Assembly (NCBI RefSeq): GCF_006345805.1
Contig: NC_043015.1
Span: 10,850,001 to 10,914,000 of the forward strand
Reading direction: 5' to 3'
DNA from: Octopus sinensis
Taxonomy: Eukaryota
Length of the DNA stretch: 64,000 bases
The position numbers and the translations under genes were made by a program. A model generated the notes under the pieces. That model saw only the letters and a program-made list of their open reading frames with translations, had not been told where the DNA came from and did no database searches. Numbering within the stretch: position 1 is the first letter of the stretch; every line of letters starts with the position of its first letter. Positions 6,105 through 49,584 of the stretch are shown here, in pieces.

Positions 6105-7228
6105 GATAGTTAACGTATATTTACCTGCACATTCATACATAATTTCTAGTATACTTTACTTGATAAAGATTCATCTATATATTGATATAAGATCATTTTC
6201 TCTGATTCTATAAAGTAAATAGCTAAACTAAGACCTTGAGACATCAGTTCACTAGTGTATATTCGGATTCGGAAGTATTACGATTGTAGACTTGAAGCCT
6301 ACTAATAAATGGGTTTTAAAAAAGCAACAGAATAAAAAAAATAACGTCACAAATTATATAAGGTAACCAATCTATGCTTCGAAATCATATAAGTCTCTGC
6401 TCATTAGTGTGCTAAAGAATACGCATGAAGTTAGCCTCACGTTACTAAGATAATAAATTTTCCCAGCAAAATATCTGATCTTTACAACGTCTCGTTAACG
6501 ATGATGCTACTCTGCAAAACATACTTTCAATGACATCTTTCGTTCTGCGATAATGAAGGATAATCCTCGAAAAGGAAATATTTAAACGAAATTAAGTAAC
6601 GTTTGGTGACCAGTTTTCTTTTCATATATTTTTTCATTTTTCTTCCTCCATTTTCATAGTCTTCTATATTTTGTCTTTATTTATATTCGTTTCTACTGTT
6701 TCTTTTGTTTTCGTTTTCATTGCTCACAGTAATAATATATAGGAGAATACTATAATGGCTCTTATGTGTTAATATGTATCAAAAGTCGCTGGTAACTCTA
6801 TAGAATCGCGTCAATTACTGGCAGAGGATACAGAATGTCATACTTCTTTAATTGCACTGGGCGTTCTAGAATTCCTTAATGAACAAACATTATCATTGCT
6901 AAGAAAAGAAAGTAAAAATATGATATTCATAGCAATAATGATGTGAAGTTGCTGTAATGCGTTTTAGCACGCAATATTTTACTATTTATCCATATTCAAT
7001 GATTCAAATTCAACATGCAATTTACATGACTGAATGAATGAATGCCTTAAAATGACACCCACATGTTCGATGATTTAATGTTCTTCGTTGAACATTGATT
7101 TCAATTCTCTCTTTCGCTCTTTCTCGCTTGCAACACCATATATGTATGATACAAATGTACGTTTGTATATATATGCTTGTGTGTGTGTGGTGTGTGTTTG
7201 TATATATGATTGTATATATGTGTCTGTA

Positions 7229-7266
<38 letters not shown>

Positions 7267-7314
7267 TATATATATATATATATATATACAATATGTTACA
7301 TTACTCGGTAGTCA

Positions 7315-7377
7315 AGATAAAACTCTGAGTTTCAGATGCCGAAGTGGAAATCCACAACACCATCTCTTCGGTTATCT
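7315..7377 (-). ncRNA. Type I hammerhead motif, CCGAAGA (U4C) variant, inverted copy
   Basis: Reverse complement of 7406-7468. Confidence 0.6.
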
Positions 7378-7405
7378 GGCTATTTGAAAACGTTATCAAA
7401 TAGCC

Positions 7406-7468
7406 AGATAACCGAAGAGATGGTGTTGTGGATTTCCACTTCGGCATCTGAAACTCAGAGTTTTATCT
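7406..7468 (+). ncRNA. Type I hammerhead motif, CCGAAGA (U4C) variant
   Basis: agataa CCGAAGA gatg...catc t GAAAC tcaga GTT ttatct. 6-bp stem I, stem III ACTC/GAGT. Confidence 0.65.
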
Positions 7469-7725
7469 GACTACCGAGTAATGTAACATATTGTATAGAT
7501 AAATTTCCTCTATTTACATAATATTGAGGTCTCTTTCTTTCTTTTGTTATCTTACCGTTTTATCAATAAATCACCTCCCGAACGACGTTATTCTCAACTA
7601 AGAGCTAATACGACCTTTTTGGGATTATCGCCTAACATCGGTTGAGGACTCTCACAAACAAAAGAATCTAATATGGACGCATATCACATAGATTATTCTA
7701 TGAAAGATAACGTTTTCAAATAGCC

Positions 7726-7788
7726 AGATAACCGAAGAGACGGTGTTGTGGATTTCCACTTCGGCATCTGAAACTCAGAGTTTTATCT
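7726..7788 (+). ncRNA. Type I hammerhead motif, CCGAAGA variant, second tandem copy
   Basis: Same as 7406-7468, 320 nt downstream, with one substitution in stem II. Confidence 0.6.
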
Positions 7789-7912
7789 TGACTACCGAGT
7801 AATGTAACATATTGTATAGATAAATTTCCTCTATTTACATAATATTGAGGTCTCTTTCTTTCTTTTGTATCTTACCGTTTTATCAATATATATATATATT
7901 ATATATATATAT

Positions 7913-7994
<82 letters not shown>

Positions 7995-8717: not shown

Positions 8718-9082
8718 ATTCCAGGCATTGGAAACATTCCAGACATTCCAGATATAATATTCAAGACATTCCAGACATCCCAGGCGTTCCAGACATTACA
8801 GATATTCCATGTATTCCGAACATTCCACAAATTTCACACATTCCAGACATTTCCGACATTCCGGGCATTGCAAACATTCCAGATATTCCGGATATTCCAA
8901 ACACACCAGACATGCCACAATGTCTGGAATGTCATGTCTAGGATGTCTGGAATATCTGGAATACCTGGAATGTCGGAATGTCTGAAATATGTGGAATGTC
9001 TGGAATGCCTGTAATGTCTAGAATGTCTCGAACGTCATGTCTGGAATGACTGGAATATCTGGAATGTCTAGAATGTCTGGAA
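8718..9082. repeat. 9-bp minisatellite (CATTCCAGA)n that flips to (TCTGGAATG)n at ~8919
   Basis: Direct reading of degenerate 9-mers and their reverse complement. Confidence 0.9.
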
Positions 9083-9084
9083 TC

Positions 9085-9423
9085 ACGTTAAATGACATTA
9101 AATGACGTTAAGTGATGTTATATGATGTGACGTTAGATAACGTTATATGACGTCCAATGAAGTTACATGACGTGACATTAAATGACCTTATATGAATTGG
9201 CGTTAAAGGCGCTAAATAACGCCCAACGACGTTACATGACGTGGCGTTAAATGACGTTAAATAACGTTTAGGAGTTAACGCTATATGGCATGACGTTAAA
9301 TTACGTTAAATGGCGTGTCGTGACCTGACGTGAAATGACGTTGGATGGCGTAACGTTAAATGACGTTAAATGCCGTTAAGTGAGGTTAAATTTCGTTAAA
9401 TGCCGTGACGTTAAATGACTTAA
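9085..9423. repeat. Degenerate 10-bp minisatellite (GACGTTAAAT)n with interspersed 5-bp GACGT/GGCGT units
   Basis: Direct reading. Confidence 0.9.
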
Positions 9424-10516: not shown

Positions 10517-10547
<31 letters not shown>

Positions 10548-10635
10548 AAGAAGAAGAAGAAGAAGAAGAAGAAGAAGAAGGAGAAAAAGAAGGAGAAGAA
10601 GGAAAAGAGAAGAAGATGAAGAAGAAAAAGAAGAG
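10260..10635. repeat. Compound (GAA)n/(GAT)n trinucleotide microsatellite
   Basis: Direct reading. Confidence 0.95.
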
Positions 10636-10639
10636 TTAT

Positions 10640-11655
10640 AATGAGTTATTAAGTGTTATAACTCTGGCAAGCTATGCAGATGATACGAAAGTCTCACAGA
10701 AAATACAGAACCCCAGCGATGTTGAACACCTGCAGCAGGAGTTGGACTCAATTTACAGATGGGCTGAGGATAATAATATGCAGTTTAATGCTGAAAAATT
10801 CCAGGCCCTGCGCTACCAGTATCCAAAATTGAATATTAAACCTACAGGGTACACCGGTCCACAGGGAATTTCAATCCCAGAGCCTAAGTCTGTGAGGGAC
10901 CTGGGTATCGACATGAGTGATGATACCTCTTTCCAAGTGCATATTGCCAGGATGGCGACAAAGTGCAGACGACTGGCTGGATGGACCTAAGAACATTCAG
11001 AACCAGAGATAAGGAAACCGTGATGGTCCTCTGGCGGACATTCGTCCTCAGACGCCTGGATTACTGCTCACAGCTATGGTCACCCACCAGTGTGAGATTA
11101 ACAGCGGACCTTGAAGCAATCCAGAGAAGATTCACAAAGGAGATCGTCTCTTTGCAACAGCTCAGCTACTGAGAAAGGTTGAAACAGCTAAGACTATATT
11201 CCCTGAAGAGAAGACGGGAGAGGTATGCAGTAATATATATCTGGAAGATCCTGGAAGGAATTGTGCCAAATTTTGGCATTGAAAGCTACTCCAATGCTAG
11301 ATCGGGACGACACTGCACAGTGCCAAAGATCTCAGCAATGCCATCACGCTTCAGGACCAGCTTCTGCAAAAGCCTGGGTTTCAAGGGCCCACAGCTTTTA
11401 AATATTCTCCCAAAAAGTCTGAGGAACTTGCACAAAGTAGATGTAACGGTTTTTAAATCAAAGCTGGACATCTTCCTGTCGAGAGTCCCAGATGAGCCTA
11501 CCTCACGGCAAGAGGTGCAAATGAGGGTAGCTATATCAAACTCCATTCTTCATCAAGTGTCACATATTAGAGGAGGCTCCTAGTAATAAAAGTGTAGCGC
11601 AAAACGGCGGTGCATCAGCATGACCGCAGCACTGGGCTGAAAATTAAAATGTGAA
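10640..11655 (+). mobile_element. 5'-truncated CR1/L2-group LINE: RT C-terminal half plus 3' UTR, with frameshift/stops
   Basis: YADDTK, W...N.MQFNAEKFQ, VRDLGI, LDYCSQLWSP, LE.IQRRFTK, L.LYSL.RRRERY, FKSKLD.FL. Broken into three ORFs. Confidence 0.9.
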
Positions 11656-22409: not shown

Positions 22410-23560
22410 TATATATATTAATAGTAATAGTAATAGTATGACAACAAAAGAATGAATGAAACCGCGATATTATATAAATAGAGGAATTTATCGGCAAAAT
22501 ATGTGACAAGTATTCGGTTGCCATAATAAAACTCCGAGTTTCGGATGTTGGGGCGGAAATCTGCTCCGGCATCTCGTCAGTTATTAAGACAAAACATAAT
22601 GGATAATAATACGAATGGTTTACACCTGGTACCTTACTCGTAAAGCACAGTTACTATCGCAGTGATCGTTATGTATATGGCAGATTAAAGATGGAAGATG
22701 GAATATACGAGAATATATTGTTAATTACGACAATTGTTTCGACACCAAAACTTCTTGTGGGACACTCAACAACTCGTTCAGGAGTATCTGGCGGTGTAGA
22801 TGTATCTCGTCGGGTGATAAATAAATCAATACAGTTCGTGAAAATAACTGTTCGCAATGTAACCTCACGTTTTGTAGAAAGAAAAGTAACCAGACGGAGG
22901 AAATATCTTCATTTATATAGAGGATCAACAATAGAATCACCGATGGTGAAGAGAGGAACAACCAAATGCGGTAAAGTTTCAGTAACCCACCTACTGGATC
23001 TAGCGAAAATTTGCATCTAAACACCAACCAAGGAGATATAAGCCACAATAGTAAACACCAATTACGATCAATTTGTAGCAGGAGAAATATTTATGATACA
23101 GCTAACACGGTAACAACGCCAGTAAATGGAGTCGGGACTGTCCTATTTACAAACAAATATGATAAATGCTCATGCATCAAAATGTCCTTTGATGAATCTC
23201 TGTATGGGTACAAATCTTGTATACAAATGTATCGCGCACACAAGGGGAAGGCCGCATATTTACGTTGGGCTGATTCATTTAAGAATCATTATCGTATCCA
23301 TGTTTACAGCTTTAAGACATGCAACATCTTTGGCAGACTTTGTATGGTGACTGAAGGACGATGAAAGGAAGTAGAGCAAATCTGGTCCATGTTAAGTATT
23401 TCAATATAATTTCCAGAAGATGCCGTCTCTGCTTTGAGGAATCCTTGTCTATTTCGTGGACTAACGATAAGATTATTTATAGAATGTCTAAACGGCCCTC
23501 GAGATGCGTTCATGCATATAAATGTGCTTTCGCACAGTGCAGTGGCAATGGATTTTGAGT
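22410..23560 (+). mobile_element. 5'-truncated Penelope-like element (Poseidon-type): RT thumb/linker plus GIY-YIG endonuclease, with inverted pLTR at the 5' end
   Basis: Across frameshifts: KCSC..CPLMNLCMGTNLVYKC...IYVGL...SFKNHYRIHVYSFK...LADFVW.LK...RCRLCFEESL.I...RCVH..K, a typical Poseidon GIY-YIG. Hammerhead-bearing pLTR on - strand at ~22440-22600. Confidence 0.8.
22524..22586 (-). ncRNA. Type I hammerhead motif in inverted pLTR (family B relative)
   Basis: taataa CTGACGA gatg...catc c GAAAC tcgga GTT ttatta. Canonical core and 6-bp stem I. Confidence 0.75.
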
Positions 23561-28416: not shown

Positions 28417-28664
28417 CAGACAGACAGACAGACAGAGGTATAGATATACCAATAGATACATACATACATATATATATTGATATATATATAATAAATAATA
28501 CACACATGTGCATCCAAACCTACAGCACACACATGCAGATATACATATGTGCATGCATATGTTTATATACATATACACACGCACACACACACACATATAT
28601 ACATACATATACAGAAAAAGAGCGAGATATAAAGTTACATGTATACATTTATACGTACATGTCT

Positions 28665-29224
28665 TCGTACCACTCTATGTCACGCTGGTGAGACCCATAT
28701 TGGAGTATGGGATTCAAGCCTCTTCTCCTTATCTCCTCAAAGACATACAGCATCTCGAAAGAGTCCAGAGGCTGGCTACTCGCATGGTTCATAGTCTCAA
28801 AAATTTGTCCTACGAAGAAAGGCTGAGGACGCTCGACCTTTATTCTCTTGAAAAACGCCGCCGCCGTGGTGATCTCATTCTCGCCCACAACATCATAAGC
28901 GGGAAGTGTAACCTCTCGAAGGAGCTGTTCTTCACTCCTGTTCCGGAGCGTCGGCTGCGGGGTCATTCCGAAAAGCTCTACCTGCGACGATTTCATCTAA
29001 ATCGAAGGAGAGGAGCTTTCTCCGTCCGGGTTGCGGATCCGTGGAACAAGCTGCCAGACGAGATGGTGAAGATGCCGACGACCGCTTTGTTCAAAGCCTC
29101 CCTGGACCTCAAGTGGCCTGAACTTTTTACATGAACACCACCCTGTACTTAACTCCATGTCCCCCTACATGGCCTTGCTATTTGCTTTTGAGCCAAATTA
29201 ACTAACTAACTAACTAACTAACTA
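28665..29224 (+). mobile_element. 5'-truncated CR1-clade LINE 3' end, open frame, (CTAA)n tail
   Basis: LYVTLVRPILEYG...LERVQRLATRMV...LSYEERL..LDLYSLEKRR.RGDLI...RGHSEKL...FSVRV...WNKLP. Tail (CTAA)n at ~29198-29224. Confidence 0.92.
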
Positions 29225-37913: not shown

Positions 37914-38001
37914 ACGCACACGAATGAAAATAGGGACCATAATTATCCGATAATATAGCGACGCACAATTCTTGAGACTGATGTCAGCTGCAGAACTTTT
38001 C

Positions 38002-39250
38002 GTTGTCCGGAAAGTTCGTGCCTATTTTTAAAGGAAAGTAAAAGGTCAATAAATACTTGTCATTACATTTTTTATCAACCAAATATGAACCATTTTGTTG
38101 CACAATGCGTCTCAATCCTTCTTTTAACTTGAAAATACCCTCTTCCCAGCATTCAGGTGTTTTCATGACAAAGAATTCTTCAAGGTCTTTTTTTACGTCA
38201 TCCAAGTAATTGAATTTTTTACCATTAAGACTATTCTGCAGAGACCTGAATGAGTGAAACCCCGAAGGAGCAATATTTGATGAATAGGGAGGGTGGGGTA
38301 ACATATCCCAGCCCAGCTACAGCAATTTTTGTCTGGTTCCCAAAGAAAACCAATACCTTTCCCGTTGGCCAGTTCTTGACGTTTCTCTTGAATTGCTGCG
38401 TTTAACTCGTACAGTTATGTGCAGTATTTATCAGAATTGTCTGGTTACTTGGAAGAAATTCATAGTACAGAATTGCTTTCCAATCCTACCAGTCACAAAG
38501 CAAGACATTTTTAGGGTGAAGACCCGCTTTTGGGGTGGCTAAGGGTGGCTCATGTCGCTTACTGCAGGTTAGCTTTCTCTGAACATTTCGATAGATAATC
38601 CATCTCTCATCACCTGATACAATTTGCTTTAAAAAAGGCGCATTTTCATTCCAATTATAAAGCGTATCACAGTTGGAAATGCGATCGAAAAAGTTCTTCT
38701 CACTCACCTCATGTGGCACCCAAACATCGTAGCGATTTGTGTACCCAAGCTTTACCCGGTGCTCATGAGCGACGGATTTTGATAGGTTGAGGCTTTATGC
38801 CAATTCTTGGATTGTGCAATGTGGGTTATTCTCAATTAATGACTTGATTTGATTATCATCTGTAGGGGATGGTCTGCCTGATCACTGTTTATCAATAAGG
38901 CTACAATATCCAGCTCGGAACCTTGCAAACCACTTCTGTACAGTTCTTTCGGCTAAAGAAACATCACTGTAAACTGTCCATATTTCTTTGGTTGCTTGTG
39001 AGGCATATTTCCTTTTCCGCAAAAGAAATGCATCAACTACTGAAAATGAAATTTCTTATCTTCCATTTTAAAAGGTTACAGAATTAATACAGGTTATAGG
39101 AACATAAAACTTCTTCCACGAAAAGATAGCTTAAACTGATCTCTAAATGGAAGTGTAGTCAAATCCTATTTTATGGACTCAAACATGTTCTAAAATAAGT
39201 CGAAATATAAGCCACTATATATCGGCATGAACTTTCCGGACAACCTAATA
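38002..39250 (-). mobile_element. Decayed mariner (DD34D) transposon with TIRs
   Basis: WVPHE, IVSGDERWIIY, LPHPPYSSNIAPS.FH.FRSLQNSL motifs. TIRs GTTGTCCGGAAAGTTC(G/A)TGCC at 38002 and inverted at ~39224-39244, TA at the right end. Confidence 0.92.
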
Positions 39251-48949: not shown

Positions 48950-49460
48950 TCTATAAATAGATGCCTTGCAAACAACTTGCACATGCAAGTGCTCCCAGTC
49001 AAAAGCTCCGTATACCCGAAGCCAGCAAGTGTATGGGGTCATCAGGAGAGAATGCGCGCCGTTTCGGGGCCTACCTCTCGACGGCATCAATGCGCACCGG
49101 CCCCCCTCACTCATCAGCTGGTTATGAAGTTAAACTCAATATCCTTCTAGCCATCGCTCGTCGTCTCTTTTTAACCAAATCCAGTGGCTAGCCTTCTCCA
49201 CTGTAGAGTGGATATCATTCATGGTGGTATTGACTTTACGATGAGTTAGGCCTAGCGATAACAACATTCGTTTCGAGCTGTGTCCCACAAACCGTCTACA
49301 TCCGACTTCGATAGGAAAATGTTCTGCTTTCCAGCCTGCGTCTTCACATTCCTCGAGGAGGTTTATATAACAGTTCAATTTTCGAGCCCGAGCGGCGTCC
49401 ATATTATCTTCATGAGGAACCATTAGCTCGACTATATTTACAACTTTCTTTCTTTCAGAA
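48950..49460 (-). mobile_element. 5'-truncated REL-endonuclease LINE (Hero/NeSL-like) 3' end between (TA)-rich tracts
   Basis: IVELMVPHEDNMDAARARKLNCYINLLEEC...GWKAEHFPIEVGCRRF...EKASHWIWLKR matches the E..VP.E / K..Y / EVG.RGF signature. Stop at 49136-49138, then a GC-rich 3' UTR. Confidence 0.85.
49031..49086 (-). ncRNA. Candidate hammerhead ribozyme with non-canonical (pseudoknotted) strand order in the LINE 3' UTR
   Basis: Minus strand: tgccGTC gagagg taggcccc GAAAC ggcg cgcat tctctc CTGATGA ccccatac. Stem III tgccGT/ACggcg and stem I gagagg/tctctc flank complete core boxes. Stem II is weak. Confidence 0.5.
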
Positions 49461-49584
49461 CACATAAAAATATATATACAAATACATATATATATACATA
49501 GATATGTACATATATATATACATATATATACACACACACACCAATATATATATATATAATGGCACATATATTAATATCTATATA

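What the first reader, a model, noticed from the sequence alone, without database searches (positions are those of the whole stretch)
7287..7887. Family B: two in-phase hammerheads 320 nt apart that could excise a monomer (candidate retrozyme circRNA), using a CCGAAGA core variant
Seen: tandem hammerheads at 7406-7468 and 7726-7788 on the same strand, plus a third inverted one. All three have CCGAAGA rather than CTGANGA, whereas the relative at 22524-22586 has canonical CTGACGA. Known: retrozyme monomers of a few hundred nt are released by tandem hammerheads and circularise. Inference: a 320-nt self-processing RNA whose U4C variant has been copied rather than purged.
Basis: partly seen in the sequence, partly recalled or inferred. 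Interest (0 to 1): 0.75.

Follow-up and report, generated by a model that had tools for sequence, protein, structure and literature searches.

The report
Hydra Penelope insertion with variant hammerhead
The two in-phase self-cutting-RNA motifs are real, but they are the repeated end of a young protein-coding Penelope-type jumping gene that was likely copied here in three pieces from uncut, capped RNA; the element's newest branch spread to about 2,500 copies with a changed, likely dampened ribozyme core, which offers a natural test of whether these elements need to cut their own RNA.

Summary
Observation confirmed: three type I hammerheads with CCGAAGA (7406-7468, 7726-7788, inverted 7377-7315) and a canonical relative at 22586-22524. 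The retrozyme reading is not supported. The 320-nt unit is the terminal repeat plus the first 11 codons of a 2.58-kb Hydra-clade Penelope-like element (intact 708-codon RT-endonuclease copy found). Its junction is single-copy: 12 similar short units have 12 different junctions, 8 with an untemplated G at the restart, likely a copied mRNA cap followed by a template jump. All piece ends here match family-wide hot spots, none the ribozyme cut site. The second ribozyme has a helix II mismatch, and a read-through RNA is predicted to bury one ribozyme under the inverted arm. U4C is family-wide: 2,512 exact C4 matches versus 452 non-C4, which are mostly an older sister subfamily. Later changes are predicted to trap the core in an 11-bp rival helix. 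U4C is known from a viroid but absent from 26 published Hydra hammerhead rows. The scan noted Hydra ends and paired insertion ends before on other DNA of this genome. Verdict: known element kind, new variant; activity untested.

The parts
7201..7286 (.). (TA)n target microsatellite, left flank
   Evidence: TRF; Hydra elements insert into (TA)n (PMC8557442 section 11)
7287..7397 (-). Inverted arm: element end from the short 3' site (ref about 275) back to ref 157, C at 7397 either the complement of an extra G or microhomology with the next piece (ref = position in natural full copy L037:3181-6030, minus strand)
   Evidence: (I1, 98% over 120 nt)
7315..7377 (-). Inverted type I hammerhead, core CCGAAGA
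7398..7705 (+). Middle piece: ref 168 (main family-wide 5'-end site) to ref 476 (terminal repeat, tail, 5' leader, first 11 codons)
7406..7468 (+). Type I hammerhead 1, core CCGAAGA, palindromic helix III, predicted cut after 7462
7673..7705 (+). First 11 codons (MDAYHIDYSMK) of the Hydra-type RT-endonuclease ORF, cut off by the junction
7706..7706 (+). Untemplated G at the junction, likely the reverse-transcribed 5' cap
   Evidence: parent has A on the ORF side and C on the terminal-repeat side
7707..7887 (+). 3' piece: ref 157 to the long 3' site (ref about 342, includes the roughly 68-nt tail)
7726..7788 (+). Type I hammerhead 2, core CCGAAGA, private T>C at 7741 gives a C-A mismatch in helix II; predicted cut after 7782
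7886..7992 (.). (AT)n then (TG)n microsatellite, right flank
22436..22586 (-). Separate, about 75% identical 3' end of an older related element with canonical CTGACGA core (not part of this insertion)

Best explanation
This is one short head-to-head insertion, in a TA microsatellite, of a young Hydra-clade Penelope-like retrotransposon whose terminal repeat carries a hammerhead with a family-wide U4C core change; it was likely built by reverse transcription of capped, uncut RNA with one template jump, and its ribozyme is likely slow or gated rather than releasing a 320-nt circle. Shown: membership of the 2.58-kb element, the end positions, the extra G, the counts. Inferred steps: (1) the element's enzyme cuts both strands of (TA)n; (2) one DNA end starts copying at the short 3' site (ref about 275), the other at the long site (about 342); (3) both run through the uncut ribozyme to a capped 5' end at ref 157 and add a G; (4) the long-site copy jumps to an A-tract at ORF codon 11 and copies on to the main 5' end at ref 168; (5) the two copies join head to head by microhomology. 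The 320-nt repeat is the by-product of step 4. Both copying start sites lie 40-110 nt downstream of the ribozyme cut (ref 233), so cutting would part them from the ORF; damping the ribozyme (U4C, then two C>T changes that complete a rival helix over the core) would be tolerated or favoured.
For: Element: flanks of the unit are shared by most of 30 loci and run into an ORF; tandem period 2,578 bp; intact ORF in L037 with RWK, DKT, YxDD, CxCX5C, GIY-YIG-like IIY..YVG, CxxC-E-N-CxH; 835 homologues at E<=1e-20. Two 3' ends: 90 of 94 arm ends in 60 consecutive loci fall in the two classes; 27 of 29 two-armed loci pair one short with one long end, 2 were unparsed, none short-short or long-long. 5' ends: 141 matches lack the templated base before ref 168, and 29 of 30 inspected are true ends. 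Junctions: 12 of 12 differ; strict parsing gives an untemplated G in 8 of 12, restarts at purines ref 157-169; both outer arms stop at the same base with a G in L005, L057, L058, L064 and compatibly in the window and L041, of 11 loci read. An extra G marks cap copying in full-length L1 insertions (PMC11702581 passage). In the anole PLE, RT starts at two internal sites, both strands are extended, uncut RNA is the main substrate and ribozyme mutants still insert (PMC11167929). U4C: 2,512 vs 452; 60 C, 39 T, 1 A in the first 100 of 4,075 core-blind matches, and only 2 of the 39 T copies have the young loop; 11 of 12 fetched T4 loci look like the older subfamily. Rival helix lies +1 to +2 kcal/mol above the ensemble in the youngest copies, +10 to +18 in U4 and most early C4 copies.
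Against: No cleavage, cap or start site was measured. G at ref 167 is only 39 of 100 in the genome-wide list and many of these are explained by the other arm. About 11 independent loci start exactly at the cut site (13-14 of 30 inspected matches) against 3 and 1 at control positions +7 and -7, and 7 of 17 tiny head-to-head loci end at ref 233-236: a hint that the C4 ribozyme cuts some templates, though TTAT microhomology confounds it. Folding energies are for single strands; the active form is expected to be a dimer and may need the protein. Older U4 copies also misfold as monomers (+3.8 to +6.7), so the energies alone do not rank activity. Pfam gave no hit on P0001 and one weak GIY-YIG hit among 39 homologues; no solved structure matched, so the domain calls rest on motifs and the published clade description.
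Confidence: 0.82

Rival explanations
1. The locus is a functioning non-LTR retrozyme dimer: both ribozymes cut and a 320-nt monomer circularises and spreads.
For: Two in-phase hammerheads 320 nt apart, unit size in the published 150-450 bp range (PMC7229834); meets the two-consecutive-HHR criterion of bioRxiv 2026.07.22.740005 except for the non-canonical core; palindromic helix III suits a double hammerhead; U4C viroid variant stays infectious (PMC3088659).
Against: Junction single-copy; unit contains ORF codons; hammerhead 2 has a helix II mismatch and its fold lies +9.0 kcal/mol above the ensemble; inverted arm predicted to sequester one ribozyme and circle z -1.0; sequence upstream of ref 157 is missing here; 8 of 9 Xenopus dimers tested did not cleave.
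Confidence: 0.06
2. The short tandem came from a DNA-level deletion or from a circular mini-RNA template rather than a cap-ended template jump.
For: Ref 145-158 is complementary to ref 472-486 (sequence), which could juxtapose the breakpoints; L042 repeats one 299-nt junction twice and L005 has the same junction in both arms.
Against: Junctions carry untemplated G in 8 of 12 and restart at the same sites where ordinary copies end; most restarts lie downstream of the complementary stretch; no junction is shared between loci.
Confidence: 0.08
3. The element assignment is right but the U4C ribozyme is fully active in vivo as a protein-assisted dimer, and C4 is a neutral hitch-hiker.
For: Excess of 5' ends at the cut site; no shared substitutions in GAAA, helix III or the cleavage triplet among 76 C4 arms; the anole ribozyme cuts only with its protein.
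Against: U4C considerably lowers activity in vitro; about 2,500 copies read through the cut site against about a dozen that start there; stepwise gain of a rival helix.
Confidence: 0.3

Closest known systems
Hydra clade of C-terminal-endonuclease Penelope-like elements, nearest listed family Hydra-1_Obim (Craig et al. 2021, PMC8557442; section 11, passages and supplement parts seen)
   Same: Under 3 kb, single ORF, RWK, DKT, CxCX5C, CxxC/CxH, (TA)n target, type I hammerhead with palindromic helix III and extra bases beside helix II. 28 of the first 44 residues match Hydra-1_Obim (counted by eye). Helix III and cut base equal those of Penelope-3_HM.
   Different: All 26 Hydra rows of File S2 have a CTGA core; this branch has CCGA. 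Clear tandem terminal repeats and a two-site tail are present here, whereas Hydra-1_Obim is listed as 'no pLTR'.
PAc, Poseidon element of Anolis carolinensis (Frangieh et al. 2024, PMC11167929; parts 1-2 of 4 read)
   Same: Two internal RT start sites that define a tail, AT-rich target, both strands extended, uncut RNA as template.
   Different: Different clade; there the start sites lie inside the ORF, here upstream of it; tail about 68 nt; cap-G ends and a third jump site are not described in the parts read.
Animal non-LTR retrozymes (PMC7229834 part 2 of 6; bioRxiv 10.64898/2026.07.22.740005 parts 1 and 3 of 5)
   Same: Short tandem unit with a type I hammerhead in each copy, derived from a PLE terminal repeat.
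   Different: No amplified monomer family, unit holds ORF codons, circle not stable, non-canonical core; at most a newborn, failed retrozyme-like unit.
U4C natural core variant of a viroid hammerhead (Perreault et al. 2011, PMC3088659, passages and section 8; its reference 30 not read)
   Same: Same core change; reported as much slower in vitro yet sufficient in vivo.
   Different: Here the change is fixed in a retrotransposon lineage of about 2,500 genomic copies, with canonical ancestors in the same genome.

Membership tests
Hydra-clade PLE | Short (<3 kb) element, single ORF, RT then C-terminal GIY-YIG endonuclease | tested here: met
   2,578-bp period, 708-codon ORF, YxDD and IIY..YVG..R motifs; Pfam silent on this protein
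Hydra-clade PLE | RWK and DKT motifs | tested here: met
   residues 46 and 123 of P0001, conserved in alignment A1
Hydra-clade PLE | CxCX5C linker; CxxC and CxH around conserved E and N; no CCHH inside the endonuclease | tested here: met
   residues 566, 669, 700; no paired cysteines between YVG and RFNNH
Hydra-clade PLE | Insertion into (TA)n | tested here: met
   window flanks and 3' ends of fetched loci
Hydra-clade PLE | Canonical hammerhead in the terminal repeat | tested here: inconclusive
   Canonical in the older subfamily, U4C in this branch; architecture otherwise as in File S2
Hydra-clade PLE | Placement in the Hydra clade on an RT tree | not tested
   Published reference proteins were not available as session sequences; only compared by eye
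PLE insertion structure | Partial tandem plus inverted terminal repeat, optional tail on one arm | tested here: met
   described in PMC3846280
Non-LTR retrozyme | Tandem units of 150-450 bp each with a type I hammerhead | tested here: met
   1.6 units of 320 bp; core is non-canonical and the second has a helix II mismatch
Non-LTR retrozyme | Non-coding unit amplified as its own family | tested here: not met
   junction single-copy, 12 of 12 different; copies of the unit continue into the ORF
Non-LTR retrozyme | Stable, highly self-paired circle | tested here: not met
   z -1.05 vs 100 shuffles, 57% paired
Non-LTR retrozyme | Self-cleavage and circular RNA in vivo | not testable with these tools
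   only assembled contigs were available

The most novel reading that the evidence does not exclude
A Penelope lineage has switched its own hammerhead down in steps (U4C, then a perfect rival helix over the core) because cutting would sever its copying start sites from the gene, and it repeatedly gives birth to retrozyme-sized tandem units by copying a capped RNA to its cap and jumping to a fixed third site at codon 11: retrozyme birth caught in the act, with an autonomous partner that has an intact copy.
Probability: 0.3. Interest if true: 0.72.

Novelty: new variant of a known kind. Interest (0 to 1): 0.45.

Why it matters
The role of hammerheads in endonuclease-bearing Penelope elements is stated as unclear (PMC8557442), and the route from Penelope end to retrozyme is proposed without a mechanism (bioRxiv 2026.07.22.740005). 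One lineage here holds canonical ancestors, early U4C copies and youngest copies with a predicted trapped core, with thousands of insertions whose ends record where copying began and stopped. That makes both questions directly testable with natural sequences. The locus itself is an ordinary dead insertion.

Tried and rejected
Expression: no RNA holder listed on record (14 holders are only guessed to be RNA). Contigs of runs X1, X3, X8, X13, X17 cover the parent element, including 2.0-2.2-kb pieces over the ORF; none bridged the 7705/7706 junction, which for contigs proves nothing; no raw reads were available, so starts, cut ends and circles could not be read. Rfam: mir-9 match rejected as an artefact of the fold-back palindrome. 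CpG decay as the source of U4 copies: rejected as the main source, since the partner change G5 gives only 94 matches against 452, and U4 copies carry linked older-subfamily differences. Selection test on the 5' core could not use loci picked by that core. One-arm-to-start, one-arm-near-cut pattern gave only 5 loci, uninformative. Pfam and solved-structure searches were almost empty. Earlier-findings look-ups by sequence and by words gave nothing. Not found in print: a U4C hammerhead in a PLE (searches; File S2) or cap-G/template-jump junctions in a PLE; the library lacks most subscription papers, a 2017 paper on small PLE hammerhead variants that cleave as dimers is recalled only and was not read, and supplements of the 2026 preprint were not seen; any of these may hold such cases.

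Full report
Observation. The window is AT-rich animal DNA full of microsatellites from a 2.7-Gb assembly. Between two TA tracts lie an inverted arm (7287-7397) and 1.6 direct copies of a 320-nt unit (7398-7887). Each piece holds a type I hammerhead with CCGAAGA in place of CUGANGA, a GAUG/CAUC helix II with a long extension, GAAA, a palindromic helix III and a GUU cut triplet. The cuts would fall after 7462 and 7782. The relative at 22586-22524 has CTGACGA. The second forward ribozyme has a private T>C at 7741 that breaks a helix II pair. Rfam reports only mir-9, on the fold-back palindrome.

What the unit belongs to. A DNA search of the own genome gave 288 candidates, 40 scored, up to 99% identical over 312 of 320 nt. 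In most of the 30 fetched loci the unit is not repeated but continues on both sides into shared sequence. Longer stretches show a 2,578-bp head-to-tail period and ORFs; L037 holds an unbroken 708-codon ORF. It has RWK, DKT, YxDD, CxCX5C, a GIY-YIG-like motif and CxxC-E-N-CxH, conserved across 38 of the 835 homologues that I aligned. These are the listed features of the Hydra clade of Penelope-like elements (PMC8557442 section 11), with Hydra-1_Obim the nearest listed family by eye. Pfam and solved structures add almost nothing. In coordinates of L037 (ref), the window reads: inverted 275 to 157, then 168 to 476, an extra G, then 157 to 342. The middle piece ends in the first 11 codons of the ORF.

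Ends are family-wide hot spots. In 60 consecutive loci of contig C1, 90 of 94 arm ends fall at two sites, about 275 and 342, which is the Penelope tail signature (PMC11167929; PMC3846280). Of 29 two-armed loci, 27 pair one short with one long end and 2 were unparsed. Earlier scan notes gave me this pairing as a lead; I tested it only in this family. 5' ends cluster at ref 157-173. At ref 168 alone 141 matches lack the templated preceding base, and 29 of 30 inspected are real ends.

The 320-nt junction. A pattern for ORF-start-to-terminal-repeat junctions finds 12 loci with 12 different junctions; the window's is single-copy. That pattern was limited to this jump site, but 6 of the 8 short-unit loci from the unbiased DNA search also break at ref 477-482. 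Strict parsing shows an untemplated G before the restart in 8 of 12; 2 more have one with a mismatch or extra A and 2 have a templated G. Restarts are purines at ref 157, 159, 160, 162, 168 and 169. In 4 of 11 loci read, both outer arms stop at the same base with a G, and the window and L041 are compatible. An extra G at 5' junctions reflects cap copying in L1 (PMC11702581). I infer that the enzyme ran to the cap of an uncut RNA and jumped to the A-tract at codon 11. Against this, G before ref 168 is only 39 of 100 genome-wide and often explained by the other arm.

Is a monomer released? Probably not from this locus. A read-through plus-strand RNA is predicted to pair the inverted arm over a whole ribozyme, and the cut-to-cut circle is not unusually stable (z -1.05, 57% paired). 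Sequence upstream of ref 157 is absent. The sequencing-run tools held only contigs and could not decide (see Tried and rejected).

U4C. Exact counts are 2,512 for C4, 452 for other bases at 4, and 94 for changes at G5. In the first 100 of 4,075 core-blind matches, 60 are C, 39 T and 1 A; T goes with older loop sequences in 37 of 39. 11 of 12 fetched T4 loci look like a sister subfamily about 80% identical. C4 copies range from about 83 to 99% identity to L037, so the change arose once in the master lineage and survived several waves. All 26 Hydra rows in the published table have CTGA. U4C is known from a viroid, slow in vitro but viable (PMC3088659). Two later C>T changes (ref 210, 219) complete an 11-bp helix that pairs the core and helix I with the 3' side of helix II; it lies +1 to +2 kcal/mol above the ensemble in the youngest copies and +10 to +18 in U4 and most early C4 copies (21 arms fitted the pattern, the rest of those tried were skipped). 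These are single-strand predictions, and old copies misfold too. GAAA, helix III and the cut triplet show no shared changes among 76 C4 arms, so the fold may still be kept. About 11 loci begin exactly at the cut site against 3 and 1 at control positions, and 7 of 17 tiny inverted loci end within 3 nt of it; microhomology may explain part. Residual cutting is therefore open, but copies that read through outnumber these about 200-fold.

Mechanism and verdict. Shown: Hydra-type element, end sites, pairing of ends, private junction with extra G, family-wide C4. Inferred: two-strand priming at two sites, cap copying, template jump, damped ribozyme. Because both start sites lie downstream of the cut, cutting without re-ligation would separate them from the ORF, which gives a reason why a slower ribozyme is tolerated; the anole element inserts without cleavage. 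The locus works like a newborn retrozyme-sized unit but fails membership tests for an amplified retrozyme. It is a new variant of a known kind, interest 0.45.

Papers seen: PMC8557442 passages, section 11, supplement part 2 and searches; PMC11167929 and PMC4209133 parts 1-2 of 4; PMC7229834 part 2 of 6; bioRxiv 2026.07.22.740005 parts 1 and 3 of 5, no supplements; PMC3088659 passages and section 8; PMC3846280 and PMC11702581 passages. Hammerhead numbering is recalled standard usage.

Noticed in passing
window 7356-7427: Rfam mir-9 match on both strands at the gathering score; an artefact of the head-to-head junction, but such junctions would give long perfect hairpins that could feed small-RNA silencing.
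   Followed up: partly
L038:2226-3263 (G000:C26 near 5.18 Mb): Two 519-bp tandem units (ref 84-602, 98.8% identical) ahead of a full element; they keep more upstream sequence than the window's unit and are a better candidate for a short self-processing RNA.
   Followed up: partly
L042:1045-1790: 299-nt tandem with the same junction twice, but the junction removes the 5' strand of helix I; rolling copy or local duplication.
   Followed up: partly
L037 ref 145-158 and ref 472-486: Terminal-repeat sequence just upstream of the 5'-end cluster is complementary to the ORF start at the jump hot spot.
   Followed up: no
window 22436-22586 (-): 5'-truncated end of an older Hydra-related family with canonical core and covarying helix II and III, ending in a TA/TAC tract.
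   Followed up: partly
run X3 on L037:5743: A contig carries a 23-nt loose end that I recall as a template-switch cDNA adaptor, suggesting that this run is a cDNA library and holds an antisense piece of the tail.
   Followed up: no
window 8718-9406: Inverted arrays of 9-nt and 10-nt units.
   Followed up: no
window 10520-11583, 28499-29134, 37984-38316, 49136-49570: ORF fragments that look like LINE reverse transcriptase ends, a mariner transposase piece and a LINE endonuclease piece (labels recalled, not tested).
   Followed up: no
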